40,678 nucleotides of DNA from Catajapyx aquilonaris (Eukaryota), in contig JYFJ02003508.1 in NCBI GenBank assembly GCA_000934665.2, positions 1-40,678 on the forward strand. Reading direction: 5' to 3'. A model generated the notes under the pieces. It ran no database searches. It was not told where the DNA came from and worked only from the letters and a program-made list of their open reading frames with translations. The position numbers and the translations under genes were made by a program. Below, piece after piece: positions 1,333-35,818 of this stretch. Each line of letters begins with the position of its first letter. Position 1 is the first letter of the stretch.

Positions 1333-4300
1333 TACTACAGCATTGATGAGATCTGTGGTGATATTACTCCTTCCTCCCCATTTCCTGCTGGGGAGCCATT
1401 CGCTAGTTACAACGCTTACTTCAAACAGAAATACAAGCTCGATGTGCAGCACCAACACCAGCCATTGATTGAAGTGAAGCAAATTGGATCACAGGGTTCA
1501 TTACCTGTTAACTTCTTAGTTCACCAGTAAGCATTACTATATAATTGTTTCCCTACTGCTGAACCTAAAAAAATATGTTCAAAGGTTTATTCATTTGACA
1601 TGTTGTTACATCGTTATATTTTTGCTGTATAGGGCTTGATCACTTCTGACTTGTTATCATTCCAGGACTGGCCCTCACAATAAGGAATCACGGCGAATGT
1701 TGCACCGTGACAAAAATCAGGAGCACCTGGTTCCTGAGCTCTGTTGTGTCCATCCAATGCCTGCTTCCTTTCTGGTTCAGGCCCTACACATCCCTTCCAT
1801 TCTTCATCGCTACAGACAGCTTCTTCTGGCTGGGGATCTATACTCTTCACTTGGATTTGAGCACAATAAGAGGATAATCGACTGGAAACCATTGTCTTAC
1901 GGTCCAATCACGACCCTAGGAAATTGTGACGATGCTGATGGAACTATGTCCAAATGTGTTTCCAGTGATGTTGATCAGGAGCAGACACTGGAGGATGGGG
2001 AAATTGTATCAGGTCAAAAACATAGTCGTTTATTAACTGCTTTTAGATGGGTGACATGAACGTACGGTTTCCCAGCAGCCTTTGTAGTAGGCTAACCCTA
2101 GATTTTAGAATATTCTAGCATGATATTTTAAGAGACAAATAATTGAATCGAGCAAAAGAAGAACAGCACATGTCACAAAATGCAACTTTTTCAGGAGAGA
2201 CAAAAAACTGATTACAGAGCTTACCGTTCACGACTGACAGTTCATCATCCTGTCAAACCTCCCAACTGTAACCTGTGCCATGAGGTAGATGCCATGAGGT
2301 AGATGGCGCCACCAGGAAATGAGACGGAAAAACAGCACAAATCCGGGGATATGTGCTGTTCTTCCAGCACACATACAAACTTTGTCCCGTTCTCCTGCCT
2401 TACTCATGCAAGTGACATGTGTTTCTTCTCCATCAAACGATGCACATGGACAAGGACTACCACATCCCATGATAATCTCATTTTCGCAAAAAATGGACTT
2501 GTGCTGTTCTTCTTTTGCTCGATTCAATTATGCTATACCCTGTGTGTCTTATAAGGTTCCTGACGACTCTTCCTATTGCAGATGATGACGTAGTGGAGGT
2601 GTCAGATGCCTCAGAAAATACTTCTGACCTGTTCAGAGACATTGTAGACCCTGAAGACAGCATCTTCACTGCTACTTTGTCTGATATTGAGCTTTTCCAC
2701 CAAGCGGTGACCTCTAAGCCTGTATCGGCATCCAGAAAGCATGATGCGTGCAGTGAAGACCACTCCACATGCCCGAAAACAAAGCGCAACATGCCTGAGA
2801 ACAAAGGACCAACACAAATAGGGTCTCCACCCAGCCATGATATTGAGCTCTCCTCCTTACTTAAGGCTTTGACATTGACTGCCTGTAACAATGGATTTGA
2901 CTTGGAGCGGCTAGAAATGGTTGGGGATTCATTCCTTAAATTCGCAGTGTCAGTCCATCTTTTCTGTGTCTACAAGAGCGATGATGAAGGAAAGCTCAGC
3001 ACTCGCAGGATGCGACTCATCAATAACAAGATTTTGTATAAGCTAGGGAAGATGAAGGGATTACCTGGACATATTAATTCCCATTCATTTGAGCCAAGGA
3101 ACTTTTGTACACCACCTGGATTCAAGGTCAGGCAACATTGTTTCTTTCTTGAACAGTTGTTATTTTGTTGATGGACACGAGCAATATATTGTTGACAATT
3201 GCAAAATGCAGAGTTGTTGCGAATTTATGTTTCTCTCATTTATTAGCCTCCAGTAGCCCTGGAAGACATCCTCATTGAACTTGGTTTAAATTACACCACT
3301 CTTCAAGAGTATACTGCTGAAGAACTGTTTGAATTCGACCCTAAGCAGCTTCGTTACCTAGTGGATTGTGTAGTAGAAAATATTACTGAGCAGACACCAA
3401 AGGAAGTTGACACCTGCAAAGTCAATGGCTTCACTAGATACTTCCATCATCATAGTGTCTCGGATAAGAGTGTGGCTGATTGTGTGGAAGCCATGATAGG
3501 AGCACATCTCCTTGGATGTGGAGATGATGCTGCCATCCACTTTCTGTCCTGGCTTGGCATGAGGGACAGGGGTCTTGAAGGAGAGGAGATCTCATTGCAC
3601 CACACACTTCCACCAGCTGTTGTTAACTACCACAATATGGGAATTGACATGGATGATGAGATCGAAAGTTACATCTTTGGAGTGGATAGGCTTGAGAAAC
3701 GAATTGGCTACAAGTTCAAAGATGTCAGCCTTTTACTTCAAGCTTTTACTCATGCATCATTCTTCCAGAACCGGATTACAGATTGCTACCAGCGGCTGGA
3801 ATTTTTGGGTGATGCAGTTCTAGGTACGTAGGGACTCACAGCTCCAGATTGTAAAGCAATGTAATGATTTTAATACATCAAAAATGATTATGTGTTTCCC
3901 AGATGTAACCTCAATTAATTATTTCATTCTGACACAGATTACTTGATAACTCGTCACATTTACGAGGATGGCCCCAATCTGACTCCTGGGCAGCTGACTG
4001 ACCTTCGTTCTGCCCTGGTGAACAACATTACATTTGCCTCCATAGCTATGCGAGAGGGACTTCACAAATATTTGCTACACTCTTCACCTCAACTTCAGAC
4101 AGTCATTGACAGATTTGTTCTTCACCAGGAAGAAAACGGGCATAAAGTTTCAGGTCATGTAAGTACTACTTCTTGAGCTTCTCATGCAAGATGCTGCATA
4201 TGATAAGTCAGAATTGAATCTATTTTTGTTGTACAAGGTATGATATATTTTTTTAATGTTTGTTTGGAAGTGTGATGGAATTGATCCAAGGCCTTTTTGA

Positions 4301-5141
4301 GCATACCGGTAATTAATGTTGCACCTTACATTATTATCTCAGTGTGGATCACAAGTCATATTTGATGAGTTTGAGCTTCTGAGTGAGGACGAGGACATTG
4401 CGGGCGAGATAGAAGTACCCAAGGTTCTTGGAGACCTTTTTGAGTCGCTGGCTGGGGCTATTTTTCTGGACAGTGGGATGTCCCTCAACAAGGTGTGGGG
4501 AGTCTTCAAATCCTTGATGAACAGAGAGCTAACTGAGTTCACAAGGAATGTGCCTATTCCACCACTCAGAGAACTGAATGAGCGATATCCCGGCAAACTT
4601 GACATCAGGTGAGAACTAAGATCTTATTGCCACAGTGTCAATCTCTATGTCCCATCTTGTGCCATTAGTTCCGGCCACTTTATCCTGGCCTTGAAGCAAC
4701 CCTTCGCACAGGTCCCACGGTGAGGACGTGTGAGTGTGTCTTCAAGACCAGCATAAAGTGGCCAGAGCTAATAAATTGCACCCGATAGTACAGTACATAA
4801 AAATGTGTACACGTGCAGTGCCTTGTCCGCATGTGGTCGTTTTGTGAGCTCCCCCGGGTTGATTAGTCTGTGGATATTCCACCCGAGACGAAGTCAGAGA
4901 CGACACTTTACTCTGCACGAGATGAAGGGGGTGTGTTGGCATTATATTTACTTCAGCATTCTCTCTCAGGTCAGTTCCTCGTCATGGCGAGTTTGAAAAA
5001 GAGGGCTTGGCGGTGGTCCGCATCTGTGTCAATATTGGAGGAAAGGACCAGATGTTTCATGGCCGAGGAAGAGGAAAGCAAAGAGCCAAAGCTGCAGCTG
5101 CGAAGTTGGCCTTGAGGAAGCTAAAAAATAGAGCTATTTAA
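1333..5141 (+). CDS. Dcr-2: Dicer family RNase III, Dicer-2-like, 3' portion (PAZ, connector, RNase IIIa, RNase IIIb, dsRBD); 5' exons lie outside the window or are not identified
   Basis: Phase-compatible GT-AG exons: 1333-1526, 1666-2012, 2582-3126, 3247-3823, 3938-4158, 4343-4608, 4970-5141. Motifs: PAZ (YFKQKY..QPLIEV), LVPELC, RNase IIIa ERLEMVGDSFLK and SDKSVADCVEA, RNase IIIb YQRLEFLGDAVLDY and EVPKVLGDLFESLAG, dsRBD GRGKQRAKAAAAKLAL. Catalytic acidic residues are intact. Dicer identity is secure. The Dcr-2 subtype is inferred from divergence and the TPGQLTDLRSALVNNITFA variant. Confidence 0.92.
2139..2531. mobile_element. MITE-like element in Dicer intron
   Basis: 32-bp perfect inverted repeats ATAATTGAATCGAGCAAAAGAAGAACAGCACA (2139-2170) and its reverse complement (2500-2531); no credible ORF inside. 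Confidence 0.75.
4673..4763. repeat. Short hairpin/MITE in last Dicer intron
   Basis: GGCCACTTTATCCTGGCCTTGAAG ... CTTCAAGACCAGCATAAAGTGGCC; a second, better preserved copy lies at 27359-27484. Confidence 0.7.
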
Positions 5142-5144
5142 TAG

Positions 5145-5216
5145 AACTATATTTCTACGAAACATGAACCGTTGATTATCTCTAATCAATGGTTTCTGTT
5201 TCGTAGAAATATAGTT
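5145..5216 (+). other. 72-nt stem-loop immediately after the Dicer stop codon
   Basis: Arms 5145-5178 and 5183-5216 (34 nt each) with loop TCTC; on the sense strand there is one mismatch and two G-U pairs. Confidence 0.8.
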
Positions 5217-6431
5217 TGTATTACTATAGCCTTGACCCTTTCCTATGACAGGTGCAGCATGTCATATATCAAAATGGTCAAGACCAATAGATAAGGTGGA
5301 AAATTCGGGGGAGGTGTGGTGGCCGAAATGATAACGTCTTGGCTTGGCTTAAAAAACAATTTTTGATCCGAACATAGGCTATGGGTAATTTTACTCATTG
5401 CCATATTATGTATGTTATCATATTATTATTATTTTATTTAATAAATGCCAAGGCTATAATCAACATGCTTTCCTGTAGTTCCTTCATCATTATTCTGCAA
5501 CAATGCCATGACAACAGTAATGACGGTATATGATATTCCTAAGGATCGAAAAAGTCAGGAGGGTACCAAAATACACTATACTTTGAAATGCTGTATAAAT
5601 ATTTTGTGCCAAAGTCAACAATAATGTTCATGTACATTCTTTCCTGTTGAGATATTTGTGACGAGACTGGCTACTCGACTTGTGTAAAAAAATTAAAGGG
5701 AAGTAAGACAGATAATCATGCTGTGATCGCATTTTTACCTCCCATTTTGATTATGAGATTTTCCCTGCTCTTTTCTAAACATGTTTCAAAACTCTCGAAA
5801 TTCACAAAAAAAGGCTCTTCTAAAGTTACATGTCTCCAGTTTAGGACCAGATAACACTACAGTACATTTATAGTATTATGCGGCAGTATTTTACCCTCAA
5901 AAAGATGATCATGACCTCAGAACACTGCTGCCGTCATCCGGGAAGAACAACCTCATTCAACCACGTGTACACTTGCGCATTATATGTAGCCTATATGTAA
6001 TATTACAAACTGAACTTTGAACCTGCATCTGATAATGACCTGGAAAAACTAGCCAATCACTAGTGCTTGCAATGTCTGGTGGAGTGAAAAAGGTCCTTAT
6101 ATTCAAGTGCTGATCAACTTGTACGGAAAACAAAACTGGGAAAGAACTTGTTCTTCGTACAACCATGATTAAGTGTTCAAAAAACTCTGAATATAGTTAT
6201 AGCATGTTTGAAAGAAATATCGCAACAATGGACGGTAAAATAGGTGACACAGCTTCCAGCGGGGTAAAGATGGTGTTCAATAATTGGAACTATTGTTCAG
6301 AAACAAGTTTATTGCAGGCAACAATAAATAGCAGAAAAGGAAAGACATTAGCAATGCAAAGAGATTTTAAACAGCGTCAGTCAATCTCAACACCAAATAA
6401 TTCACGGGTGCACTTAACGCAATTGACTCTC

Positions 6432-8360
6432 CTACGCACACATGACTTCTGCAAATAGAACTATCAGACCAAAACACCAGCTGCAAATGATGAGAAAGTA
6501 GATCACCCCTCTCAATTGCTCAAATTTCAAGGCCATCGATTTCACAAACAATCGATCCTTGGCTCTGGCTTCTCTTATTCCAATAACCAGACAAGTGTCG
6601 AATAAATACCTGTCATACTTAGCCATAAGCCCGGAATCTATGTAGTACACAGCTATCCGTTTCATTATTGGCACAAGCAAACTGTGCTTGTCCATAATGA
6701 TAGTTGCTAATGCAAGAATTCCGTCTTCATTTGGTACAAAAACGGGTATTCTTCCAGCCTTATCTGCAAATTGGGCCCCTATGGCCAACAATATGTCAGC
6801 AGTCGTAATACACGCGTAATTGGTCTCAATTGATTTACCAACACAGGTGTTGAAATCTCTTTCGTCTATCATGCGGGCCACAATGGGTTTGAAATATTCC
6901 AAATTATTATTAATAAATATACTGGCGTAGTAAGGTTTAGCCGCTCCCCAAATCCCCCATTCCCATGTATGGCTCCTCTCGTTCAGTTCTTGAAATGTCT
7001 TTGGCAAATCCTCCTGCAATGGGGATGCCAGGAACCCAAAATATCTGGCTTCGTACCCACAGATCAAAACCAATGAACCAATCCACCAGAAGGAGATGAA
7101 CACTCGGGGGGCATCACCTTCGGGTACAGTGTTAGGATTTTCCTCAATCAGGGTGGAAAATGTGTATCTCAAGGAATAAAGGAAAAGGGATGGTGGGCCT
7201 TTGCCTACTGGAAACGGATTGTTGAATTCCCGTTGTATTTTCAACAATGCACAAAAAACCAAAGTTCCCATTAGGGAAGCCAAAAATATACAGATCCACA
7301 TACTCAGGGTGTAAGGCATAAGGACCGAATTCCAGGAATAACTTTCTCTTGCTATTCTTGTGGTGAAAGATACAGATGAATAATAAATGGGAATATTGAC
7401 TGCAACGACTCTACTCATGGTGCTTGTTGGTATTGTGAAACCAAATTCGGCTTTTCTTAATATAATTTCACCAGTTTGGCCCGTATAATTTCCATCGGGC
7501 AATGGAACATCAGGAATTTCTCCGTCATCTAACATTACGGCTTCAAATGTCCAATCAAAATTTAACGCATCGCTGACATCCAGTACAAAGAAAATCGACC
7601 CATAGAATGGCAAAGAATTTTCGTAAAAATACCTCAAATCTCCTCTCGATATATCAATAGGCCCTGTGGCATTTACGAAAGCTCCATGAAAATTGGTGGA
7701 ATAATCAGGGAAAATATCACTTTCCTTTAATCGACTACCACGTTTGTATTCACTTACTTGGACAACTTTTGGCCCACCGTGATCGCAATAATGACAGTTC
7801 GCCATCACCTTGAGCGAGCTGGAGTCCTGGTGGTACTCGATCCCGACCTGAAAGAGCATGAGTTGGGCGATGGGATGCATCAAGACTGTGTCCAGACCTC
7901 CGTCCCTGGGCCAGAAGAGGAACCTGTCCCTTCCGGTGTCCATGAGGTGAAGAGTGGCCGCGTGGACCACCAGAGGAGACAAGGTGTCCAGTGTCCCGAA
8001 GGCGAAGAGGAAGGTGGCGCAGGGGTCCAGTCTCCTGGCCTCCGGTCTGTGCAGCCAGGAGAACCAGTACTGTCCACTGGCGTCCACTGGTGTCCCGTCC
8101 CACCTCACCACCGCCACTTCCTCCGATCCATTGTTGATCAGCCGGTTAAACGAAGAGGGGAACACCAACCAGTCGCCGCACAGCACCAGGAGACACTCGG
8201 GTCTCGAACCACGGACAGCTTCCACCAGGGAGGCCACCAGCTTTTCCTCTTCCGACCACACAGATGTCAAAGAAGTCTGGACATGACCCGCTGTAAATGC
8301 TGCCAGGGAACAAAGAGCAACAACTGCGAACCTCGTCGCTTCCATGTTGCAATTGAACAA
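6432..8360 (-). CDS. Divergent ionotropic receptor (variant iGluR chemoreceptor) IR-a, intronless, 642 aa
   Basis: Signal peptide; S1 motif DGNYTGQTGE; pre-M1 SVLMPYTLSMW; M1; pore region; M2 RVFISFWW...GYEARYFGFLASP; S2; ALKFEQLRG before M3. The canonical glutamate-binding S1 motif is degenerate. Confidence 0.9.
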   Translation of the reverse strand: MFNCNMEATRFAVVALCSLAAFTAGHVQTSLTSVWSEEEKLVASLVEAVRGSRPECLLVLCGDWLVFPSSFNRLINNGSEEVAVVRWDGTPVDASGQYWFSWLHRPEARRLDPCATFLFAFGTLDTLSPLVVHAATLHLMDTGRDRFLFWPRDGGLDTVLMHPIAQLMLFQVGIEYHQDSSSLKVMANCHYCDHGGPKVVQVSEYKRGSRLKESDIFPDYSTNFHGAFVNATGPIDISRGDLRYFYENSLPFYGSIFFVLDVSDALNFDWTFEAVMLDDGEIPDVPLPDGNYTGQTGEIILRKAEFGFTIPTSTMSRVVAVNIPIYYSSVSFTTRIARESYSWNSVLMPYTLSMWICIFLASLMGTLVFCALLKIQREFNNPFPVGKGPPSLFLYSLRYTFSTLIEENPNTVPEGDAPRVFISFWWIGSLVLICGYEARYFGFLASPLQEDLPKTFQELNERSHTWEWGIWGAAKPYYASIFINNNLEYFKPIVARMIDERDFNTCVGKSIETNYACITTADILLAIGAQFADKAGRIPVFVPNEDGILALATIIMDKHSLLVPIMKRIAVYYIDSGLMAKYDRYLFDTCLVIGIREARAKDRLFVKSMALKFEQLRGVIYFLIICSWCFGLIVLFAEVMCA

Positions 8361-8880
8361 GTCTATCGATCATCAATAGTTTTTATATGACCGCCAATTC
8401 TCAATTTGGCGAATCCCTTTCTCTACAAGTCAACTGCAACATTGGAAGAATTATTTTGACACTCTCATACCCCTTCGTGCATCACATGGACTCTCATCTG
8501 TCGCCAGTGAATTCTCCTAATCCGCCGATAATTCCATAATTTCGCGAACTTTTCTCCGTCAAAATATTGAATGAGGAGACCTGTAATCCTGGCAAATTGA
8601 ACAACAATTTTCTTTGACATAACTGCGAGGGCCACTGTTATACGAGTCCCTTTTATTTACCCGAGGGACAGAAAATTGCATCTCTACTCCGCAAAAACCC
8701 ATAAATATTTGATCGTGTCTGATACATTTTGTACTTTCCTGTCTCGCATCCCATAGCCTACTTACCGTGTCAAAGCCATGTCATTGTATGACCATCTCTT
8801 ATTATATAGCCTACTTTATATTGATATTGAGTTGTTTCCGTACGGCATAAGTCATTTCTCTGTCACAGTCAATGTCAACC

Positions 8881-9106
8881 GTACAATCGATCCTTGTTTA
8901 TCGCTTCTCTGATTCCAATCACGAAGCAAGTATCGAACAAATAGTGGTCGTATTTGGCCAAAAAGCCAGAGTCTATGAAATAAACAACAATTCGGTTGAT
9001 GATAGGTAGTAATAAACTGTTCTTGGTCCTAAATACACCTCCAAGAAAAAAAATATTCCAGCCCCTATCGATATGGGTGTTTTTCCAGACTTGTCTACAA
9101 ATTGGC
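8881..9106 (-). pseudogene. IR relic (S2 C-terminal fragment, frameshifted)
   Basis: Minus-strand translation GQFVDKSGKTPI../..KNSLLLPIINRIVVYFIDSGFLAKYDHYLFDTCFVIGIREAINKDRLY aligns to the C-termini of the intact IRs; there is a frame break at a poly-T run. Confidence 0.85.
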
Positions 9107-9521
9107 CATTTTACAATTTCGCTAACTGTTTCTCCTTCATAATATTACATGAGTCACCAGGCCCTAATACTATCAAATCGGACAACAATATATTATCTGT
9201 GACGTTAATGGACGGGTTACTGTAATACGAGCCCCTTTTATATACCTGAAGGACAGAAAATTGCATAGCTGATCCGCAAAAACATTAAATTTTTGATAGT
9301 ATTTAAAAGCATACAGATAGGCTACACTTATGCGTCAAAGGTAGGTCATTTTATTGCTATTTCTTTTATGCTTACCATTGACATCGAGTTGTTTCAGTAA
9401 GAGCTAGCGGTCAGTACTCTCTCATTCTTAAGGTCAACTGGCACCATTGCTGCTAAGAGGTCTGTTGTGTTTACACTTGCGCCATATGATTCTGTTAATT
9501 ACCAAGGCTAATTCAGAGAGA

Positions 9522-9625
9522 TCTAAAAACGCACAATTCAGTAAATTTCAGTGAAAAAAGAAAATAGTAATATATATTACTATTCTCTTTTTTTCACTGA
9601 AATTTACTGAATTGTGCGTTTTAGA
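9522..9625. repeat. ~104-bp near-perfect palindrome without spacer
   Basis: CTAAAAACGCACAATTCAGTAAATTTCAGTGAAAAAA...TAGTAATATATATTACTA...TTTTTTCACTGAAATTTACTGAATTGTGCGTTTTAG. Confidence 0.85.
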
Positions 9626-10329: not shown

Positions 10330-12048
10330 TCATGGTCTGTCCTCTGGATCAAGGATGGCCAAGAATAGTACGTTGAACTGATGCAATTTCTGGTCACGCT
10401 GTATCATCGCCTGCCTTCTTGTATTTTCAACGTGGTCACCCAGACCTAGAAGAGTGTTGGAGGTTTCCTGTACCTTCTGCTCAGCATCATGGACCTGGTA
10501 GATCTCCTTCAACTTTTGCTTGGCTTCTCCCACCTTCTGTTTGGCTTCCTGTACCTCATCTGTCTCATGCAGCTTCCGAAACACCTCTAGTAACTTCTCC
10601 TTGGCCTCTTCCACCTTCAGTTTGACCTTCTGTATCTGACGTGTCTCTTGTATCTTCCGATAGACCTTCTTCAAATTCTCCTCTTCCTTTGTAATTTTCA
10701 TCCTGGCCTCATGCACTTGATTTGTCCTATTTACCTTTCGGTTGGTCTTCCGCAGCATCTTCTTAGCCTCTTCCAACTTCTGTTTGGCCTCGTATACCTG
10801 GTTTGTCTCAGGTACATTCTGACAGGCCTCCTGCAATTTATTGTAGGCTTCTTCCATGTTCTGCTGCGCCTTCCACACCTCATCGTCTCTCTCATACATA
10901 TTCCGGTAGGCCTTCCGAAACATCCGTTTTTTATCTTCCATCATTTGGCTGGCCTTCACTGTCTCAGGTATCTTCTGGTAGACCTCCTGCAACTTCTGTC
11001 TGGCCTCCTGTACCATCTTCTTGGCTTCGTACACCTGTTCTGTCTTATTTACTTTTCTGTAGATTGCCCGTAACTTACCGTCGGCCTCTTCAGCATTCAG
11101 CATGGCTTCCTTCAGTTGCTGTGTCTTATTTACCTTCTGGTGCGCATCCATCAACTTCATCTTGGCTTCTTCCACTTGATTCTTGGTCTCCTGCACCTGG
11201 TATGTCTCATGTATCTGCCCGTACACTTCCTGCAACTTCTTCTCTGCCTCTTCCACTGTCTGTTTGGCCTGCTGCACTTCATTGGTCTCCTGTACCTTCC
11301 TGTAGGCCTTCCACAACTTATGGCTGGCATGTTCAGCCTTCCTATAGGCCTCCTTCACATGATCTGCCTTATTTACTTTCCACCAGGCATCCTGCAACTC
11401 TCTCTTGGCTTCTTCTACTTTCATCTTAGCATCCTGCACCTCAGGTACCATCTGATAAGCCTCCTGCAATTTCTGCTTAGCCTCTTCCACCTTCAGCTTG
11501 ACCTTCTGCATCTCATTTGCCTTCTGCACCTTCTGCTGGGTGTCCACATACTTATGCTTGGCCGCTTTCAGCTTCTTCTTGGCTTCCTGCATCTGGTCTG
11601 TCTCTTGTAGCTTCCTGTAGACCTTCTTCAACTTTAGCTTCGCCTCTCTCACATCCTGCTTGGCCTCCTCTGCCTGATCTGTCTTATTTACCTTCTGATA
11701 GGCTTCCATCAGTTTCACCTTGGCATCTCCAACCATATGCTTGGCCTCCTGCAACTTACTGTTGGCCTCTTCTACCATCTGCTCAAAGTCTTGTATTTGG
11801 TCTGTCTGATATACCTTCTGGTAGGCCTCCTTCAACTTCATCTTGGCCTCTTCTACCTTCCGCTTGGCATCCTGCATCTCCTTCTCAGCTTCCTCCATCT
11901 TCCGGTTGGACTCCTGCTCAATGGAGTTCCACCTGGCACGCAGAACTGCAACGTACTTACGCATGGTGGACTCTGGTCGCTCAACACGGCCACGGAGGGC
12001 AGCCCTGGGGTCGAACCTGGGGCTGAGCGACTGCCCTAGGGCGAACAT
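10330..12048 (-). CDS. Uncharacterised alpha-helical protein with ~17 degenerate 27-aa tandem repeats
   Basis: ORF of ~1.7 kb without stops despite repeat divergence; consensus ~EAKQKLQEAYRKVQETDQVQEAKQKVE; strongly K/E/Q/A biased. A likely acceptor (TTCTTACAG) at 12051 precedes the ATG at 12048. The start is uncertain. Confidence 0.75.
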   Translation of the reverse strand: MFALGQSLSPRFDPRAALRGRVERPESTMRKYVAVLRARWNSIEQESNRKMEEAEKEMQDAKRKVEEAKMKLKEAYQKVYQTDQIQDFEQMVEEANSKLQEAKHMVGDAKVKLMEAYQKVNKTDQAEEAKQDVREAKLKLKKVYRKLQETDQMQEAKKKLKAAKHKYVDTQQKVQKANEMQKVKLKVEEAKQKLQEAYQMVPEVQDAKMKVEEAKRELQDAWWKVNKADHVKEAYRKAEHASHKLWKAYRKVQETNEVQQAKQTVEEAEKKLQEVYGQIHETYQVQETKNQVEEAKMKLMDAHQKVNKTQQLKEAMLNAEEADGKLRAIYRKVNKTEQVYEAKKMVQEARQKLQEVYQKIPETVKASQMMEDKKRMFRKAYRNMYERDDEVWKAQQNMEEAYNKLQEACQNVPETNQVYEAKQKLEEAKKMLRKTNRKVNRTNQVHEARMKITKEEENLKKVYRKIQETRQIQKVKLKVEEAKEKLLEVFRKLHETDEVQEAKQKVGEAKQKLKEIYQVHDAEQKVQETSNTLLGLGDHVENTRRQAMIQRDQKLHQFNVLFLAILDPEDRP

Positions 12049-12850: not shown

Positions 12851-14087
12851 CAAGGGAAGGTCACGGGGTGATAATGACGGATCTTGATGAAATTTAATAT
12901 GCTAATACAGGACAATATATGATACCCAAAAATGAAATATTTCGTGCGGAACCTCATATTTGCAAAAGTTATGACGTCTTAAAGTTCCAAAAATAATACA
13001 TTTTCATACTCCATGGGATTGCATTAGCGACCACATATAATGACACTGAAGTGTGTAATCAGTTTCTAGAACTTTTCTCATCGGAAAAAAGTCTTACAGA
13101 ACGGCTCTGGCCGTCCGTCCGTCCGTCTGTGGACATGTATCAAGGCCTAAACCGTAAGAGATAGCGACAAACGGTTTTCATATTCGGATTGAGCGTGACC
13201 AAAATAGGTTTCATGGTCAACTTCTGGTGACCCGCCACTTTCGGTCTTCAGGGTTCACTCTATCCTCACAAGTCTATACTTTACGGGCGGGTTTTCGTTG
13301 GATTTCGAAGTTAGTTTCCGTGTATTCCTGACCGTGTTTTTCGGGGATTTACTCTGGGTTTTACCTGACTCTCTGGCACAGGGGCTGTGGAATTTATTCC
13401 TGATGTTGGACATGTTTGCAATGAGCGTCATCGGCCGCCATGATGTTATCGCCCAAGCCGATACTGGAATCGATATGTTGCCTAGGTTACGATATATCGA
13501 TTCACATGCTCCCTGTAAGAATGAGAAAAGGTCTCATCGAATCCCGCTCACGTGAGGTAAAACCCGGAGTAAATCCCCGAAAAACACGGTCAGGAATGCA
13601 CGGAAACTAACTTCGAAATCCAACGATAACCCGCCCGTAAAGTAGACTTGTGCAGTTGTGTGGATAGAGTGAACCCGGAAGACCGGAAGTGGCGTGTCAC
13701 CAGAACGAGTTGACCATGAAACCTATTTTGGTCACTCTCAATCCGAATATGAAAACCGTTTGTCGCTATCTCTTACGGTTTGGGCCTTGATACCTGTCCA
13801 CAGACGGACGGACGGACGGCCAGAGCCGTTCTGTAGGACTTTTTCCTGTGAGAAAAGGTCTAGAAACTGATTACCCACTTCAATGTCATTATACTTGTAA
13901 TATGTGGTCGCTAATGTAATCCCATGGAGTATGAAAATGGATTATTTTTAGAACTTTAAGACGTCATAACTTTTGCAAATATGGGGTTCCGCACGAAATA
14001 TTTCATTTTTGGGTATCATATATTGTCCTGTATTAGCATGCTAAATTTCATCAAGATCCGTCATTATCACCCCGTGACCTTCCCTTG
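12851..14087. mobile_element. Foldback-type element with ~520-bp inverted arms
   Basis: Left arm 12851-13366 (CAAGGGAAGGTCACGGGGTG...) and right arm 13555-14087 (...CACCCCGTGACCTTCCCTTG) flank a ~190-bp spacer. Each arm has a (GTCC)n microsatellite. No ORF and no obvious target-site duplication. Confidence 0.88.
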
Positions 14088-14734: not shown

Positions 14735-14769
<35 letters not shown>

Positions 14770-15735
14770 CTGTCGTTGAATGGATCCTATGGTGCTGGAG
14801 AAAGCAGCCAGGGAAGATGCCGCTACAGCGACGGCAACCAGCCCTAACCCAGTTACAAATGGTGGCGCCGTTGCCAACATAAAATAAAAGAGGCAGACTG
14901 TGCTCCATATCACAAATATAAGAAATGTTGTCATTATAAATATTCCGTAAGTGTTGTCCATCATGTCCGCAAGAAGACCCAGTTCGTGATACAGATCGGC
15001 AGTATACCTCATGTTACGGATCATGCGCACATTATTCTGTGCCGATTCTGTAAACTTGTCGAGCAAATGGCACATTCTGAGCACTTCTTTGTTGAAATCC
15101 TCGAGGTGTGACAAGTGAACGTGCACCAAAAATGTCAACTGAATTGAAATCAGGGCCAGGAAGAAGACGCAATGCAAATATAAGAAAGCGCAAGTTAATT
15201 CTGTTACATTCAATCGTCCCGGCATCAGTAATAGACCTGAGATCATTTCAGCCACAAGTAATGGTGGGAGGGAAACACAAGTGATCACCAGCAGGATTGC
15301 ATAAGTCCTCAATTTCTTCTGATGGTTTTTCACATCCAGATGTGAAAAGCGGCGAATCAATTTCCAAATGGCAGGCACTCGTCTCTGGATCACAATGAAG
15401 TTAATCCATGGACCACCATATACAACCGCTTCCGAGAATGCAAACGCGACTCTTTGCGTTGGACTTTCCCACTGTCCCTCAGCAGTCCACGACAGACGTG
15501 GCTTACACGCAAGTACGGTGATATACGTGGCAAGACATACAAAATGCGCCAATGTTGGCCACCGTCTGTACCACTTCCCTGCAAGATCGTGGTTTTTGGG
15601 CCACGGAAAAGGAGCGATTCCTCCAACCACTGACAAGATGGCCACTGGTCTCAACACTTCCCAAAATGCATTGTCCTCCTCTGAATTTTCCTTTACATTT
15701 TGGGGCCCTTCCACCGGAATTGCAATTGTCGACAT
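14217..15735 (-). CDS. Gustatory receptor GR-1 (7TM chemoreceptor), 4 exons, 414 aa
   Basis: Exons 15735-14770, 14694-14626, 14503-14414, 14336-14217, all with phase-0 GT-AG introns. Multiple hydrophobic helices, ITAANYFTVNRGLL, and the GR signature TYLIVLTQF. Confidence 0.92.
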
Positions 15736-23524: not shown

Positions 23525-25468
23525 TTAAGCAATATATTTTGCGCAGTTTTTGCATGTTATAACTTCTCCAATAAACAAAAGAATTCCACAGCACCAGCAA
23601 CATGTGACAATAAAACACATTACTCCTTTCAATTGGTCAAAATTCAAAGCCATTGAGCGCTGATACATCCTGTCAAGCTTCCTCGCTTCTCTGAGACCCA
23701 TCAGAAAACAAGTGTATTCCAAGTACTTGTCATATTTAGCCATCAGACCTGATTCAATGTAATAATATGACATTCTGTCAACAACTGGGCCCAACTTGCT
23801 GTGTTTGTCCAAAATGACTCCACATAATAGTAATATGCCAGCTTCTTTAGCGACGATCACTGGAATATTTCCGGCCTTGTCAATATATTGCGACCCCACT
23901 GCAAGCAATATGTCCGCTGAAGCTATGCAGGCAAAATTTTCATCAATTGATTTCCGAATACACATGTTGAAGTCGGGTAGATCGTTCATGTTTCTAGAAA
24001 TGGGTTTAAAGTATTCCAAATCATTATCGGAGAAGATATTCGCTAAATAAGGCTTAGCAACTTCGAATGTCCCCCATTCCCATTGTTTACGCCTATTGTT
24101 AAGCTCTTGAAACGAGTCCGGCAAATCCTCCTGCAGTGGAGATGCCAAGAAGCCGAAGTACAAGGCTTCGTATCCGATGATGATGACCAGGGAATAGATC
24201 CACCAGAAGGAGATGAAGAGTCTGGAGGGGTCACCTCGGGGGATGGTGTTGGGGTTTTCCTCGATCAGGGTGGAAAACAGGTATCTGGCCGAGTAGAGGA
24301 AGAGGGAATAGGACGGACCCTTGTCTGGAAAAGGGTTGCGGAAGGTGCTCTCTATTCTTAGCAGGGCGAAAAGGACAAAGCTGCCTGCCAAAGTGGCCAG
24401 GAATATCAAAACCCACATTTCAGGAGTGTAAGGCATCAAGACGGAATTCCACGAGTAACTAGGTCTGGATGTCCTTGTAGAAAAGGTCACCTGGACATAG
24501 TAGACAGGTAATAGTACACGCACAACAGAAGTAATCACGGTTAAGGGTATGAGGCCTATCTCCGCCCTTCTATGAATAATTATACCAGTTTGCCCCGTGT
24601 AATTACCGTCGGACTTCAAAATGTCAGGCATCTCCCCGTCATCGAATTCAGCTCCTTCCAATCTCCAATCAAAATTAAGTGCATCACTTGTCAAAAGGAT
24701 GAATATGAAGGTACCAAACATTGGTACTGAATTGTCTAACATGTATTGTAGCTCTTCCTTGAATATATCAAACGGCGATGTGCCGTTAATTACCTTTCCA
24801 TGAAGATTGGTGGAATAATCGGGGAACAATTCGGGCATAGCTTTACCCCTCGTATATTGACCAACGTGCACCACCTTGGGATTACCGTGATCGCAATAGT
24901 GACAGTTCGCCATCACCTTGAGCGAGCTGGAGTCCTGGTCGAACTGGATCCCGACCTGAAAGAGCATGAGTTGGGCGATGGGATGCATCAAGACTGTGTC
25001 CAGACCTCCGTCCCTGGGCCAGAAGAGGAACCTGTCCCTTCCGGTGTCCATGAGGTGAAGAGTGGCCGCGTGGACCACCAGAGGAGACAAGGTGTCCAGT
25101 GTCCCGAAGGCGAAGAGGAAGGTGGCGCAGGGGTCCAGTCTCCTGGCCTCCGGTCTGTGCAGCCAGGAGAACCAGTACTGTCCACTGGCGTCCACTGGTG
25201 TCCCGTCCCACCTCACCACCGCCACTTCCTCCGATCCATTGTTGATCAGCCGGTTAAACGAAGAGGGGAACACCAACCAGTCGCCGCACAACACCAGGAG
25301 ACACTCGGGTCTCGAACCACGGACATCTTGAACCAGGGAGGCCACCAGTTCCTCTTCCTCCGACCCCACCGTTGTAAAAGAAGTCTGAACGTGACCAGAA
25401 GTGAATGTTTCCCAAGAGTAAAGAGCAACAACTGTTAACCAAGCGGCTTCCATGATGAAACTGAACAT
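23525..25468 (-). CDS. Divergent ionotropic receptor IR-b, intronless, 647 aa
   Basis: Full-length paralog of IR-a with the same S1-M1-pore-M2-S2-M3 motifs. Confidence 0.9.
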   Translation of the reverse strand: MFSFIMEAAWLTVVALYSWETFTSGHVQTSFTTVGSEEEELVASLVQDVRGSRPECLLVLCGDWLVFPSSFNRLINNGSEEVAVVRWDGTPVDASGQYWFSWLHRPEARRLDPCATFLFAFGTLDTLSPLVVHAATLHLMDTGRDRFLFWPRDGGLDTVLMHPIAQLMLFQVGIQFDQDSSSLKVMANCHYCDHGNPKVVHVGQYTRGKAMPELFPDYSTNLHGKVINGTSPFDIFKEELQYMLDNSVPMFGTFIFILLTSDALNFDWRLEGAEFDDGEMPDILKSDGNYTGQTGIIIHRRAEIGLIPLTVITSVVRVLLPVYYVQVTFSTRTSRPSYSWNSVLMPYTPEMWVLIFLATLAGSFVLFALLRIESTFRNPFPDKGPSYSLFLYSARYLFSTLIEENPNTIPRGDPSRLFISFWWIYSLVIIIGYEALYFGFLASPLQEDLPDSFQELNNRRKQWEWGTFEVAKPYLANIFSDNDLEYFKPISRNMNDLPDFNMCIRKSIDENFACIASADILLAVGSQYIDKAGNIPVIVAKEAGILLLCGVILDKHSKLGPVVDRMSYYYIESGLMAKYDKYLEYTCFLMGLREARKLDRMYQRSMALNFDQLKGVMCFIVTCCWCCGILLFIGEVITCKNCAKYIA

Positions 25469-27358: not shown

Positions 27359-27484
27359 TTCAAATACTTTTGGCCACTTTATCCTGGTCTTGAAGCAACC
27401 CTTCACACTCACACACCTCCTTAACATGGTGTCTGTGTGAAAGGTTGCTTCAAGAGAAGGATAAAGTGGCCAAAGGTATTTGAA
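27359..27484. repeat. ~125-bp hairpin/MITE, same family as 4673-4763
   Basis: TTCAAATACTTTTGGCCACTTTATCCTGGTCTTGAAGCAACC ... GGTTGCTTCAAGAGAAGGATAAAGTGGCCAAAGGTATTTGAA. Confidence 0.75.
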
Positions 27485-30091: not shown

Positions 30092-30430
30092 GAGAGAGGT
30101 TAAAGTATGTTAAAAGTGTCCTTCACAATCAAATCTCCAGCGCAATTCTTTGCAAGAATTAAAATTTACAACATTTGTCAGTAAAATATCGCCATTTTTG
30201 TAATCTACATTATGACTTTCATAACAGGAAAAAGTAAAAGCTACACACAGTTCATCAATTACTGGAGAATACTCTTGAGATGCTGTCATAAAGATAGCTG
30301 CAGGTTTCTACGTGGCACTTACACATGACCCCAAGATCTTTGCACTGTGGGTAATTCGAGACTTTCTTCTGGAATGTCGTGTGCGAAAATGGTTCTCGAA
30401 ATAAAATAACTCTGCATTTGTGTACTTTAT

Positions 30431-30960: not shown

Positions 30961-31957
30961 CCGAGTTTCTTTGACACAGGGGCAAAGGAAAGTCATTCAG
31001 GCTAAATCCATTAATATGAAAATGGTATAGGAATTCTGTGATTAATGTCTTATTTCTAAATATGCAATAAAAAGGGACACTCCACTCAAAATACAAGTTG
31101 GCCTCTAAAAATCAGGCGAAATATCCTGATTCCGGTGATACCCTCTGTTTTTTCTTTCTTCGTCCGGTGCTGACAGAAGCTGCTGGTTGGAACCTGGATG
31201 AAAAATTCAGAGGCCAATGGTGAAGCTGCCGTGAGTGGTAAGTATTAGACCTTCACTAATAGGGCCTCTTACTTTGGACAATGTGAGTAACTCACATTTG
31301 CGTAAGGACCAGGTAAACGTGTCTGAAATGTTAAATTTAAACATGTTCGTTTGTGGGTAAATTAATTCCGGTGAACAAACTTCGGGTCAAAAGACATGCT
31401 TATGTTATAAGTTATAACTCATCAAAATCATGAAAGTGAAAAAAACTATCCTGAATGCAAGTAATTGCTTAAACAATAATTATGTCCTTGGCGATTGCTC
31501 ATCTACAAGTAAAATTAATTTTACACATGATACATTATTACAAACAATAAGTGAAGTCATATCACAAGATCACAACCGTCCTCCTTCAGCTTTAATTAAC
31601 ACCAATATTAGCCTACATCATACAATCATGCAAATATAGTAATAAATAATAATGATGAACTTTATTGATGGATTGATTGATGGAGGCATGACATTAACCA
31701 AAATGTACAGTATGGCCTTAATTATTTTTCATTCGACATGTAATATAGCAACAATGGACAGTAAAATTGGTGACGCCTCTTCCGGCGGGATAAAGATGGT
31801 GTTCAATAATGGGCACTATTGTTCAGAAACCACTTTATTGCAGGAAACAATAAATAGCAGAAAAGGAAAGACATTAGCAATGCCGATAGATTTTAAACAA
31901 CGTCAGTCAACCTCAACACTAAATAATTCACAGGTGCACTTAATACAATTGACTCTC

Positions 31958-33213
31958 CTTCCCACACAGGCCTTCTGCAAATAGAACTATCAGACCAAAT
32001 CACAAGCTGAAAATAGAACTATCATACCAAATCACAAGCTGCAAATAGAACTATCAGACCAAATCACAAGCTGCCAATGATGAGAAAATAGATCACCCCT
32101 CTCAATTGTTCAAATTTCAAGGACATCGACTTCACAAACAATCGATCCTTGGCTCTGGCTTCTCTTATTCCAATAACCAGACAAGTGTCGAATAAATACC
32201 TGTCATACTTAGCCATAAGCCCGGCATCCACGTAATATACACCCATTCGTTTCATTATTGGCACAAGCAAACTGTGCTTGTCCAAAATGATAGTTGCTAA
32301 TGCAAGAATTCCGTCTTCATTTGGTACGAAAACGGGTATTCTTCCAGCCTTATCTGCAAATTGGGCCCCTATGGCCAACAATATGTCAGCAGTCGTAATA
32401 CACGCGTAATTGGTCTCAATTGATTTACCAACACAGGTGTTGAAATCTCTTTCGTCTATCATGCGGGCAACAATGGGTTTGAAATATTCCAAATTATTAT
32501 TAATAAATATACTGGCGTAGTAAGGTTTAGCTGCTCCCCAAATCCCCCATTCCCATGTATGGCTCCTCTCGTTCAGTTCTTGAAATGTCTTTGGCAAATC
32601 CTCCTGCAATGGAGATGCTAAAAATGCAAAATATCTGGCTTCGTATCCACATATTAAAACTAATGAACAAATCCACCAGAAAGAAATGAACACTCTGGTA
32701 TTCACTTACTTGAACAACTTTGGGATTGCCGTGATCGCAATAGTGACAGTTCGCCATCACCTTGAGCGAGCTGGAGTCCTGGTCGAACTGGATCCCGACC
32801 TGAAAGAGCATGAGTTGGGCGATGGGATGCATCAAGACTGTGTCCAGACCTCCGTCCCTGGGCCAGAAGAGGAACCTGTCCCTTCCGGTGTCCATGAGGT
32901 GAAGAGTGGCCGCGTGGACCACCAGAGGAGACAAGGTGTCCAGTGTCCCGAAGGCGAAGAGGAAGGTGGCGCAGGGGTCCAGTCTCCTGGCCTCCGGTCT
33001 GTGCAGCCAGGAGAACCAGTACTGTCCACTGGCGTCCACTGGTGTCCCGTCCCACCTCACCACCGCCACTTCCTCCGATCCATTGATGATTAGCTCTTCC
33101 TCTTCCGACCACACAGATGTCAAAGAGGTCTGAACATGACCCGCTGTGAATGCTGCCAGGGAACAAAGAGCAACAACTGCGAACCTCGTCGCTTCCATGT
33201 TGCAATGGAACAA
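31958..33213 (-). pseudogene. IR-c pseudogene, duplicate of IR-a
   Basis: In-frame N-terminal deletion of ~33 codons; ~640-bp frameshifting deletion near 32697 removing S1, M1 and pore; premature TGA at 32064 in M3. Flanks are homologous to those of IR-a. Confidence 0.9.
31978..32073. repeat. Three tandem 32-bp copies within the IR-c M3 coding region
   Basis: CAAATAGAACTATCAGACCAAATCACAAGCTG x3 (minor variants); single copy in IR-a. Confidence 0.9.
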
Positions 33214-33892: not shown

Positions 33893-35818
33893 TTAGTGTC
33901 CAATCAGAACCTCACTAGCGAATGCAATGATACCAAAACACCAGCTGAAAATGAACAGGAAATACATCACACCTCTCATTTGTTCAAAGTTAAGAGCCAT
34001 TGAGTACTGGTACAATCTATCCTTGATTCGCGCTTCTCTGATTCCAATCAACAAGCATGTCTCGAATAAATACTGGTCGTATTTGGCCATCAATCCAGAG
34101 TCTATATAGTACAGAACAAGTCGGTTGAGGATCGGATATAAGAGATTGTGTTTGGCCGTAAACGAACCACATAAAATTAAAATTCCATCCTCCTTTGCTA
34201 CAACTATAGGGATTTTCCCAGCCTTGTCTACAAATTGGGCCCCTATTGCCAACAATATGTTACCATCTGATATGCAGGCGTAATTGGTCTCGATTGATTT
34301 ACGAATACACGTGTTCAAGTCTCTTTCATCTAGCATTCTGGCTGCTATGGGTTTAAAATATTCCAAGTCATTACTCAAAAAGACATTTGCATAGTAAGGT
34401 TTAGCTGCCTCCCAAGTCCCCCACTCCCAGTGATCACTCCTTTTTGTGAGATCCTGATAGGTCTTGGGTAAATCTTCCTGCAATGGAGATGCCAGGAACC
34501 CAAAATATCTGGCTTCGTATCCACAAATTAAAACCAATGAACCAATCCACCAGAAGGAGATGAACACTCGGGGGGCATCACCTTCGGGTACAGTGTTGGG
34601 ATTTTCCTCAATCAGGGTGGAAAATGTGTATCTCAATGAATAAAGGAAAAGGGATGGCGGGCTTCTACCTGTTGGAAAAGGATTGCAGTACTGCTTCCGT
34701 ACTCTTAACACAAAGCAAAGGACGAAACTGCTCGCCAAGCTGGCCAAAAATATTGCAATCCACATGTCTAGTGTGAAAGGTAATAGTGTGGAATTCCAAG
34801 AATAACTAGGTCTGGAAGGTCTTGTCGTGAAACACATTGAGGCGTAATAATTAGGGAATAAAAAGTCAACCACTTTCATCAATACATCTGTTAAAAATGC
34901 ATAGCCCATCTCTGCCTTTCTTCGTACAATTTCACCTGCTTGACCTGTGTAATTTCCATCTGGCAAAGGGGAGTCTGGAATTTCGCCGTCATATAATTCA
35001 GGAGCATCTAGAGTCCAATCAAAATTTATCGCATCACTTGCAAGTAGAATAAACATCGCCAAACCAAACATTGGAACTGAATTGTCAAGCATGTGTTGCA
35101 AATCGAACTTTGTCATATCAAAGTAAAACGTTCCATTTATTACTTTACCATTCAAATTGATGGAATAATCAGGAAACAGTTCGGGGGTTTTACTACCGCG
35201 CTTGTAGTGAGCGACATGCACTACTTTTGGCTCACCGTGATCGCAATAGTGACAGTTCGCCATCACCTTGAGCGAGTGGGAGTCCTGGTCGAACTGGATC
35301 CCGACCTGAAAGAGCATGAGTTGGGCGATGGGATGCATCAAGACTGTGTCCAGACCTCCGTCCCTGGGCCAGAAGAGGAACCTGTCCCTTCCGGTGTCCA
35401 TGAGGTGAAGAGTGGCCGCGTGGACCACCAGAGGAGACAAGGTGTCCAGTGTCCCGAAGGCGAAGAGGAAGGTGGCGCAGGGGTCCAGTCTCCTGGCCTC
35501 CGGTCTGTGCAGCCAGGAGAACCAGTACTGTCCACTGGCGTCCACTGGTGTCCCGTCCCACCTCACCACCGCCACTTCCTCCGATCCATTGTTGATCAGC
35601 CGGTTAAACGAAGAGGGGAACACCAACCAGTCGCCGCACAGCACCAGGAGACACTCGGGTCTCGAACCACGGACATCTTCCACCAGGGATGACACCAGTT
35701 CCTCTTCCTCCGACCCCACCGTTGTAAAAGAAGTCTGAACGTGACCAGATGTGAATGTTGCCAAGAAGCAAAGCGCAACAACTGCGAACCGCGTCGCCTC
35801 CATGTCGCAACTGAACAA
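33893..35818 (-). CDS. Divergent ionotropic receptor IR-d, intronless, 641 aa
   Basis: Full-length paralog of IR-a and IR-b with the same domain motifs. Confidence 0.9.
   Translation of the reverse strand: MFSCDMEATRFAVVALCFLATFTSGHVQTSFTTVGSEEEELVSSLVEDVRGSRPECLLVLCGDWLVFPSSFNRLINNGSEEVAVVRWDGTPVDASGQYWFSWLHRPEARRLDPCATFLFAFGTLDTLSPLVVHAATLHLMDTGRDRFLFWPRDGGLDTVLMHPIAQLMLFQVGIQFDQDSHSLKVMANCHYCDHGEPKVVHVAHYKRGSKTPELFPDYSINLNGKVINGTFYFDMTKFDLQHMLDNSVPMFGLAMFILLASDAINFDWTLDAPELYDGEIPDSPLPDGNYTGQAGEIVRRKAEMGYAFLTDVLMKVVDFLFPNYYASMCFTTRPSRPSYSWNSTLLPFTLDMWIAIFLASLASSFVLCFVLRVRKQYCNPFPTGRSPPSLFLYSLRYTFSTLIEENPNTVPEGDAPRVFISFWWIGSLVLICGYEARYFGFLASPLQEDLPKTYQDLTKRSDHWEWGTWEAAKPYYANVFLSNDLEYFKPIAARMLDERDLNTCIRKSIETNYACISDGNILLAIGAQFVDKAGKIPIVVAKEDGILILCGSFTAKHNLLYPILNRLVLYYIDSGLMAKYDQYLFETCLLIGIREARIKDRLYQYSMALNFEQMRGVMYFLFIFSWCFGIIAFASEVLIGH

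What the first reader, a model, noticed from the sequence alone, without database searches (positions are those of the whole stretch)
7839..8217. Invariant GC-rich 379-bp 'constant region' in otherwise divergent IRs
Seen: 7839-8217, 24947-25325 and 35297-35675 are identical by eye, including synonymous sites, except for one base in IR-b. The surviving part in the pseudogene (32791-33085) also matches. The adjacent S1 and S2 lobes differ at many residues. The block is about 60% GC against about 40% in the rest of the CDS, with sharp edges. Known: the N-terminal region of tuning IRs is usually the least conserved part, so this pattern is inverted. Inference: ongoing GC-biased gene conversion or a DNA/RNA-level element maintains a constant-plus-variable receptor design, for example a shared co-receptor interface or a common small-RNA target.
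Basis: partly seen in the sequence, partly recalled or inferred. Interest (0 to 1): 0.72.

Follow-up and report, generated by a model that had tools for sequence, protein, structure and literature searches.

The report
One N-terminus for dozens of receptors
Dozens of otherwise very different smell/taste-type ion-channel genes in this arthropod-type genome carry an almost letter-identical, GC-rich 380-base stretch encoding their front domain, likely because the copies keep overwriting one another there, and they are so alike that the overwriting likely favours a few donor copies.

Summary
The block encodes the N-terminal domain of intronless divergent ionotropic receptors (IRs). At least 40 genome loci carry it at 97-100%. 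The clade has about 87 members, and contig depth from the raw reads implies 53-113 exact copies, so it is not a polishing artefact. Synonymous divergence is 0.01 in the block against about 1.7 in S1/S2; GC3 is 0.8 against 0.3-0.4. Three other IR clades each have their own, different constant N-terminus, which argues against a shared RNA/DNA element. Best reading: region-restricted ectopic gene conversion with GC bias, as in fugu protocadherins. Added here: the copies are star-like (Tajima's D -2.2 to -2.7) and far less diverse than simulated symmetric conversion among 85 loci. This points to donor bias or recurrent family-wide sweeps, conditional on a rough heterozygosity estimate and a short-read assembly. 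Promoter/signal-peptide ends are decoupled from ligand domains (crossovers or mis-joins). Diversifying selection on S1/S2 is not shown. The scan noted the same pattern earlier on other pieces of this genome. My ten literature searches found no report for IRs.

The parts
6432..8345 (-). IR-a, single-exon divergent ionotropic receptor, 637 aa
   Evidence: ORF; Pfam Lig_chan E 1.6e-7
7839..8217 (-). Constant block in IR-a (codons 44-169, N-terminal domain between signal peptide and S1), GC3 0.79
8346..8387 (-). Predicted core promoter: TATA-like box 8387-8380 and an initiator-like word near 8356-8351; the block would start about 140 nt after the start site
   Evidence: sequence; TATA-like word at a fixed distance in 24 of 29 intact members; motif names recalled
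6996..7195 (-). Second, weaker homogenised tract (pore loop/M3), shared within subgroups; a and c 100% identical in protein at residues 386-450
   Evidence: read-depth peak at 7029-7190
23525..25468 (-). IR-b, 647 aa ORF, Lig_chan
24947..25325 (-). Constant block in IR-b (one synonymous difference from IR-a)
31950..33198 (-). Pseudogene p, a duplicate of IR-a, with a 99-nt deletion in the block's 5' part and a deletion of about 640 nt removing S1-M1
32791..33085 (-). Surviving block in p: 0 of 295 differences from IR-a, while S2-M4 differs at 16 of 510 and the flanks at 27 of 354 and 22 of 212
33893..35803 (-). IR-c, 636 aa, Lig_chan
35297..35675 (-). Constant block in IR-c, identical to IR-a

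Best explanation
The block is the N-terminal-domain coding region of a large clade of intronless ionotropic receptor genes, almost identical among dozens of copies whose ligand domains are saturated for synonymous change, and it is likely kept so by ongoing GC-biased gene conversion between copies that is likely directional (a few donor copies, or repeated family-wide sweeps). Shown: near-identity, raised GC3, graded edges, the same pattern with different DNA in three other clades, and a star-like variant spectrum. Inferred steps: (1) breaks near the 5' end of these promoter-proximal genes are repaired from a paralogue; (2) heteroduplex repair favours G/C; (3) S1/S2 escaped once their divergence blocked pairing, helped by purifying selection on each paralogue's own ligand domain; (4) overwriting the N-terminus is tolerated because all members would present it to the same co-receptor; (5) donor use is skewed, so about 85 loci coalesce like one locus. 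My confidence is about 0.85 in conversion as the homogenising force and about 0.5 in the directional part.
For: Divergence in 29 intact members: dS 0.01 in the block against 1.67 (S1), 1.73 (S2) and 1.80 (M4); 4-fold-site diversity 0.000-0.018 at residues 61-165. Reads: in run X4 one 148-nt contig at 8005-8152 has depth 1733 and 0 mismatches, against 15-32 for single-gene contigs, giving 53-113 copies. Of 13 contig-end loci fetched, 12 break inside the block. Replicates: clades F2 (17 loci), F3 (3) and F4 (4) are separate starred clades in a 73-row S1-M1 tree (quick tree), each with its own near-invariant N-terminus and GC3 0.75-0.83. Eighteen other IRs average 0.58. GC bias: rare variants run GC>AT 15 to AT>GC 4, and the non-genic 137-nt fragments 10 to 2 (counted by eye); pooled p=0.04, implied equilibrium GC about 0.28 against 0.61. 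Not protein selection: rare variants in intact copies are 12 nonsynonymous to 3 synonymous, which rejects omega<=0.3 at p=0.012, and pseudogene p is still identical. Conversion elsewhere in the genes: 31 of 406 pairs have a significant identical third-position run outside the block. Directionality: pi 0.0015-0.0046 in 37 copies (0.005-0.012 in all 41), D -2.2 to -2.7, and F2 D -2.17. Simulated symmetric conversion among 85 loci gives pi 0.38-0.52 at theta 0.004 and 0.04-0.07 at theta 0.0005, with D near 0. A single donor gives pi 0.003-0.010 and D about -2.2 at suitable rates.
Against: No cross-species orthologue test was possible; the nearest outside relative is a 278-aa fragment at 48-53%. 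Theta rests on about 2 apparent heterozygous sites in about 440 nt. A short-read assembler walking a collapsed repeat could itself yield 'majority plus singletons'. Read depth bounds mean per-copy divergence only to about 1.6% (my arithmetic, 53 of 87 copies matching a 31-mer), which overlaps the low end of the symmetric model at theta 0.0005. The GC>AT excess among in-gene variants alone is not significant (p=0.16). L072 has a single-copy N-terminus yet GC3 0.77, L046 likewise (0.70), and 13 of 18 comparison genes have a milder 5' GC3 excess. A strict master copy would not itself gain GC, so donor bias and GC bias fit together only if the donor role shifts over time. The simulation treats the tract as one unit at equilibrium. 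No donor copy was identified.
Confidence: 0.7

Rival explanations
1. Ordinary symmetric concerted evolution: all copies convert each other equally, and the extreme uniformity reflects low heterozygosity plus assembly smoothing.
For: It is the textbook process and matches fugu protocadherins. One intermediate-frequency variant exists at the block edge (28 of 42). The assembly is short-read and breaks in the block.
Against: Simulated pi is 10-100 times the observed value and D is near 0. In positions 40-340 all 11 variants of 37 copies are singletons. F2 shows the same spectrum.
Confidence: 0.3
2. Selection on the protein: one N-terminal domain is required for assembly with a co-receptor, an improved version swept through the clade by conversion, and synonymous sites hitch-hiked.
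For: The cryo-EM preprint 10.64898/2026.09.30.755715 reports that tuning IRs keep only the R2 lobe and that it contacts the co-receptor's N-terminal domain. Five diverging copies show pN/pS 0.46, p=0.006. A star-like spectrum is also what a sweep leaves.
Against: Rare variants in intact homogenised copies show pN/pS 1.3. The domain is no more conserved than S1/S2 between lineages. M4, also a membrane part, is not homogenised. Two clades would need equally recent sweeps.
Confidence: 0.2
3. A DNA- or RNA-level element (exonic enhancer, receptor-choice element, small-RNA target) under selection at every base.
For: Invariance includes synonymous sites. The block lies about 140-520 nt after a conserved TATA-like promoter.
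Against: The four clades have different constant sequences. No fold signal (z +1.29) and no Rfam match. Edges are graded like conversion tracts. Non-genic fragments decay at least as fast as their flanks (6-11 of 137 against 6-8 of about 195).
Confidence: 0.07
4. Assembly or polishing artefact: reads from diverged copies were collapsed onto one consensus.
For: Short-read assembly with many contig breaks in the block, and single Ns inside it in L040 and L044.
Against: Contigs built from the raw runs by another pipeline hold the same letters at 53-113 times single-gene depth. Copies carry private variants. Duplicates a and p agree on both sides of the block. The GC3 shift cannot come from polishing. 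The four runs are one sample, possibly the source sample, so this tests the pipeline and not the species.
Confidence: 0.03

Closest known systems
Regional gene conversion in fugu clustered protocadherin variable exons (PMC1852091; 12 passages read)
   Same: One region more than 99% identical among paralogues whose other part is divergent; higher GC3 in the converted part (54-69% against 38-45%); different subclusters homogenised separately and only about 38% identical to each other.
   Different: There it is the 3' ectodomains of adhesion proteins, in subclusters of up to about 17 genes lying close together. Here it is the 5' domain of chemoreceptor channels in about 50-110 copies, with GC3 0.8. 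In the passages I saw, that paper does not treat the variant spectrum or donor bias.
Interlocus gene conversion with a divergence peak held by selection, e.g. primate L/M opsins (review PMC3924837; 12 passages and section 2.3 read)
   Same: Conversion homogenises part of duplicated genes while the specificity part stays different.
   Different: There it is two genes, mostly homogenised, with a small divergent peak. Here most of the gene has escaped, the constant part is the island, and dN>dS in the ligand lobes was not found.
Large intronless divergent IR expansions, e.g. Campodea augens, 2,424 genes (PMC6938034; 9 passages read; supplements not opened)
   Same: Mostly intronless IRs, arrays, many pseudogenes, rapid turnover.
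   Different: The word 'conversion' does not occur in that main text, and no constant N-terminal tract is described in the passages seen.
Tuning IR architecture (bioRxiv 10.64898/2026.09.30.755715; abstract, 12 passages and section 12 read)
   Same: A short N-terminal domain before S1, expected to be the R2 lobe that faces the co-receptor.
   Different: The preprint calls tuning-receptor N-terminal domains often poorly conserved; within these clades they are nearly invariant. The fold was not confirmed for this protein.

Membership tests
Divergent (tuning) ionotropic receptors | iGluR-type ligand-binding and channel core | tested here: met
   Pfam Lig_chan above cut-off in 3 of 3 intact genes; a family profile matches GluD1, kainate and AMPA chains over S1-M4, best E 8e-43
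Divergent (tuning) ionotropic receptors | Short N-terminal domain (R2 lobe only) before S1 | tested here: inconclusive
   About 170 aa between signal peptide and S1, outside the iGluR match; atlas lead 0.92 to a putative IR cluster and 0.87 to a cluster with IR75A_N in 26% of members; no structure model obtained
Divergent (tuning) ionotropic receptors | Often intronless, clustered, with many pseudogenes | tested here: met
   Single ORFs of 636-647 aa; 23 of 30 first loci full length and 7 broken
Divergent (tuning) ionotropic receptors | Sensory-neuron expression and co-receptor dependence | not testable with these tools
   No functional or expression data available
Regional concerted evolution (protocadherin type) | Near-identity including synonymous sites in one region of otherwise divergent paralogues | tested here: met
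   dS 0.01 against about 1.7
Regional concerted evolution (protocadherin type) | Raised GC3 in the homogenised region | tested here: met
   0.73-0.97 against 0.33-0.5 in S1 and most of S2; two single-copy genes also have high N-terminal GC3
Regional concerted evolution (protocadherin type) | Each subfamily homogenised to its own sequence | tested here: met
   Four clades
Regional concerted evolution (protocadherin type) | Paralogues closer than orthologues of related species | not testable with these tools
   No related genome held; nearest outside protein 48-53% identical
Regional concerted evolution (protocadherin type) | Converting copies lie close together in one cluster | tested here: inconclusive
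   Up to 4 per contig, but spread over more than 30 mostly short contigs of unknown linkage
Neutral symmetric conversion model (island-model theory, recalled) | Between-copy diversity at least n times theta, neutral frequency spectrum | tested here: not met
   pi 0.0015-0.012 and D -2.2 to -2.7 against simulated 0.04-0.5 and D near 0; conditional on a rough theta and on the assembly
Transposon or MITE insertion | Foreign sequence, mostly outside genes, not homologous to the host domain | tested here: not met
   In frame after the signal peptide in 30 of 30 loci; homologous at 33-44% to N-termini of other IRs; only short fragments lie outside genes
Structured RNA or small-RNA target | Fold signal, RNA family match, or sequence shared across targets | tested here: not met
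   z +1.29; 0 Rfam matches; the sequence differs between clades; small RNAs could not be examined
Programmed cassette systems (antigenic variation, chicken immunoglobulin; recalled) | Silent cassettes copied into one expression site | tested here: not met
   Most members are full-length genes with their own TATA-like promoter (24 of 29); somatic exchange itself was not testable

The most novel reading that the evidence does not exclude
The block is a standing recombination hub of a chemoreceptor family. One or a few master copies rewrite the N-terminus of about 85 genes, and crossovers inside the block swap promoters and signal peptides among ligand-binding domains. This would rewire which neuron expresses which ligand specificity without changing the co-receptor interface: a constant/variable design built by the germ line, evolved repeatedly in one genome. 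Support: signal-peptide distances are uncorrelated with S1 distances (Mantel 0.05, p=0.24, against 0.70 for S1 vs S2). L003/L019 differ by 7% upstream but 39% in S1, and L011/L027 by 44% upstream but 7% in S1. Assembly mis-joins across the block are not excluded.
Probability: 0.15. Interest if true: 0.85.

Novelty: new variant of a known kind. Interest (0 to 1): 0.58.

Why it matters
It shows domain-restricted concerted evolution in IRs, at a scale of 50-110 copies and replicated in four clades of one genome. This offers a natural test of what keeps conversion going in one domain and stops it in the next. If the singleton-only spectrum survives long reads, symmetric conversion cannot explain it, and donor bias or recurrent GC-driven sweeps become directly measurable in a large gene family. 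Practically, the block breaks short-read assemblies (roughly half the clade lies on contigs cut there), distorts IR trees and dates built on whole genes, and makes probes, RNAi or guides against the N-terminus hit the whole clade.

Tried and rejected
Homologue search of the 90% protein collection found nothing at E<=0.001 among 7999 candidates. The 50% library gave 708 hits, the best three close ones being unnamed fragments and the best named ones Orchesella dallaii IRs at 24-25%. The run search showed no RNA holder listed, which is no evidence on expression. RNA folding and Rfam were negative. The + strand ORFs over the block (7791-8390, 24800-25438, 32686-33093, 35216-35692) are antisense shadows of a GC3-rich frame (inference); the one scanned has no Pfam match. 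Positive selection on S1/S2 was looked for and not found (F1 dN/dS about 0.17; F2 S1 0.64, 0.97 in one part). The prediction that high N-terminal GC3 marks only converting clades failed for L072 and L046. Only 3 of the 18 comparison genes were checked for being single-copy. No structure model was obtained, so the R2-lobe assignment stays open. No complex was predicted, because no co-receptor sequence was in hand. The careful tree did not finish and the quick tree is used (73 of 90 loci had the motifs needed). Ten paper searches combined IR, gene conversion, concerted evolution, N-terminal, chimeric and GC-biased terms. None listed a paper whose title or abstract start reports this pattern in IRs. 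Subscription papers are mostly not covered, and I opened no supplements, where chemoreceptor annotation notes often sit.

Full report
Observation. The three stretches are as described. IR-a and IR-c are identical over exactly 7839-8217, IR-b differs at one base, and GC is 0.61 against 0.42 for the window. The pseudogene's surviving 295 nt have no difference from IR-a. The genes are single-exon ORFs of 637, 647 and 636 aa on the minus strand, each with Pfam Lig_chan above cut-off. The block is codons 44-169, between the signal peptide and S1. A family profile matches solved iGluRs only from S1 onwards.

Scale. A DNA search of the genome (G000, 285.6 Mb, 20,583 contigs) scored 40 of 103 candidates, all 97-100% identical. 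In 30 of 30 fetched loci the block sits in frame in the same IR family; 23 are full length and 7 are broken. A central 30-mer occurs exactly 45 times. Searching with S1-M4 scored 106 of 1250 candidates. By my count about 87 rows belong to this clade (F1) on identity, and not all were tree-tested. Many lack the block because their contig ends there: of 13 contig-end loci fetched, 8 begin and 4 end inside it, and one begins about 120 nt downstream.

Artefact test. Contigs built from four raw runs of one sample, possibly the source sample, show summed depth of 3,400-9,200 over the block against 27-113 in S1. In run X4 one 148-nt contig (8005-8152) has depth 1733 with no mismatch, against 15-32 for single-gene contigs, giving 53-113 exact copies. 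Polishing therefore did not create the identity. The variant table of that call was truncated and omits even the known 8183 variant, so it cannot exclude some hidden variation. Depth limits mean per-copy divergence to roughly 1.6% (my arithmetic).

Profile. In 29 intact F1 genes (of 45 loci then held), 4-fold diversity is 0.000-0.018 at residues 61-165 and mostly 0.4-0.7 in S1/S2. GC3 is 0.73-0.97 in the block against 0.33-0.58 in S1/S2. dS is 0.01 in the block and about 1.7 in S1, S2 and M4; dN there is about 0.3, so the ligand lobes are under purifying, not demonstrably positive, selection. The edges are graded over 100-150 nt on each side, peaking at residues 121-150, and a weaker peak covers the pore. 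The reads also show this pore peak. Outside the block, 31 of 406 pairs have a significant identical third-position run, and nearest neighbours switch along genes (L005 follows IR-a in early S1, then L004). A TATA-like word lies at a fixed distance in 24 of 29 genes, which places the block about 140-520 nt after the predicted start site (motif identities recalled).

Replicates. Three other clades have their own constant N-terminus with different DNA. F2 has 17 full-length matches at 97-100%, F3 has 3 loci, and F4 has 4 loci, looser at 87-98%. Their GC3 is 0.75-0.83. Each is a separate starred clade in a quick S1-M1 tree of 73 loci. Eighteen other IRs average N-terminal GC3 0.58, range 0.42-0.77. 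Against a tight link, L072 and L046 are single-copy in this region yet have 0.77 and 0.70, and 13 of 18 show some 5' excess. Between 14 lineages the domain is 44.5% identical, similar to S1 (48%) and S2 (43%). It is thus not intrinsically conserved.

What holds it constant. An RNA or DNA element is unlikely: the sequence differs between clades, folding is no better than shuffles (z +1.29), Rfam gives nothing, and a 137-nt fragment inserted between genes decays like its flanks. Protein selection alone cannot fix synonymous sites, and rare variants in 27 intact copies are 12 nonsynonymous to 3 synonymous (omega<=0.3 rejected at p=0.012). Five diverging copies do show purifying selection (0.46, p=0.006), so the domain is functional. 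Pseudogene p is identical in the block but differs from IR-a at 16 of 510 sites in S2-M4 and by 8-10% in the flanks. New variants lean GC>AT (15:4, not significant alone; 25:6 pooled with the fragments, p=0.04), which implies a fixation bias towards GC. This is the signature described for fugu protocadherins (PMC1852091). Published tract estimates of 50 to several hundred bp fit the block's size (PMC3924818, 12 passages).

The unexplained part. Under symmetric neutral conversion a family of n loci behaves like n demes, so between-copy diversity should be at least n times theta (island-model theory, recalled; simulated). About 2 apparent heterozygous sites in about 440 nt of IR-a-specific sequence suggest theta near 0.004, very roughly. 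For 85 loci the simulation gives pi 0.38-0.52 at theta 0.004 and 0.04-0.07 (lowest 0.016 of 30 runs) at theta 0.0005, with D near 0. Observed pi is 0.0015-0.0046 for 37 copies after dropping L038, L039, L041 and L042, and 0.005-0.012 for all 41. D is -2.2 to -2.7, and F2 gives -2.17. One donor locus reproduces both numbers at suitable rates, three donors less well. I therefore commit to directional conversion, by skewed and shifting donor use or recurrent sweeps, at about even odds. The weak points are the theta estimate, possible assembly smoothing, and the need for donors to be converted too if GC is to rise.

Promoter decoupling. Signal-peptide distances do not track S1 (Mantel 0.05, p=0.24), and upstream DNA tracks it weakly (0.29, p=0.002), whereas S1 and S2 track each other (0.70) in 29 genes. 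Clear discordant pairs exist (L003/L019, L018/L025, L011/L027, and IR-b/IR-c in this window) beside concordant ones (L004/L005, L015/L028, L011/L017/L022, IR-a/p). Crossovers within the block would do this, and so would mis-joins of a short-read assembly; I cannot separate them.

Why this domain. The cryo-EM preprint reports that tuning IRs keep only the R2 lobe of the N-terminal domain and that it packs on the co-receptor. Overwriting it among members sharing a co-receptor would be harmless, while overwriting S1/S2 would erase specificity. That is inference: no model or binding test was obtained, and M4 is not homogenised. Nearness to the promoter is an alternative reason.

Comparison and verdict. 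It works like protocadherin regional conversion and meets that pattern's testable features. The cross-species test and linkage could not be done. My ten searches found no report for IRs, and the Campodea IR paper's main text does not mention conversion. After I had reached this reading and found the fugu paper, the scan's index showed earlier notes on other pieces of this genome with the same pattern and reading. These are unchecked AI notes, not support. A look-up by this block's sequence found nothing. Verdict: real, a new variant of a known process, notable for scale, four-fold replication and a variant spectrum that symmetric conversion does not predict. Interest 0.58.

Noticed in passing
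L092:1557-1693, L094:2224-2360, L095:4122-4258: One 137-nt piece of the block inserted in AT-rich intergenic DNA and later duplicated with its flanks, 93-98% identical to the block; it looks like a templated insertion.
   Followed up: partly
L091:1564-1684; L093:2505-2658: Further lone block fragments of 121 and 154 nt, the first inside a GACA microsatellite array far from any IR match in the 3.2 kb fetched.
   Followed up: partly
L041, L042, L039, L038: F1 members that have partly escaped homogenisation (90-98% in the block); L041 keeps a longer 5' loop.
   Followed up: partly
L052-L069 (clade F2): The open frames end near the start of the pore region in most members, probably at a shared intron.
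   Followed up: no
window 1697-3831 (+): Exons of an RNase III-domain gene, Dicer-like by recall; Ribonuclease_3 E 2e-13 at 2530-3168.
   Followed up: no
window 14755-15735, 16701-17711, 19551-20567 (-): Three long gustatory-receptor-type exons (7tm_7 in the two scanned); the last two regions are 76% identical over 1.5 kb.
   Followed up: no
window 10330-12048 (-): 572-aa repetitive, Lys/Glu/Gln-rich ORF with no Pfam match, built of degenerate repeats.
   Followed up: no
window 12851-14087, 28373-28885, 37904-38400, 9526-9622, 27359-27484: Long inverted repeats, probably MITE-like elements.
   Followed up: no
window 26664-30092 and 36852-39986: The upstream regions of IR-b and IR-c share patches of 86-98% identity although their ligand domains fall in different subclades.
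   Followed up: partly
window 38617-39225 (-): 202-aa ORF that resembles the C-terminal part of a PIF1/Helitron-type helicase (resemblance recalled, not searched).
   Followed up: no
window 8538-9452: Decayed IR 3'-end fragment and a duplicated promoter-side segment just upstream of IR-a.
   Followed up: no
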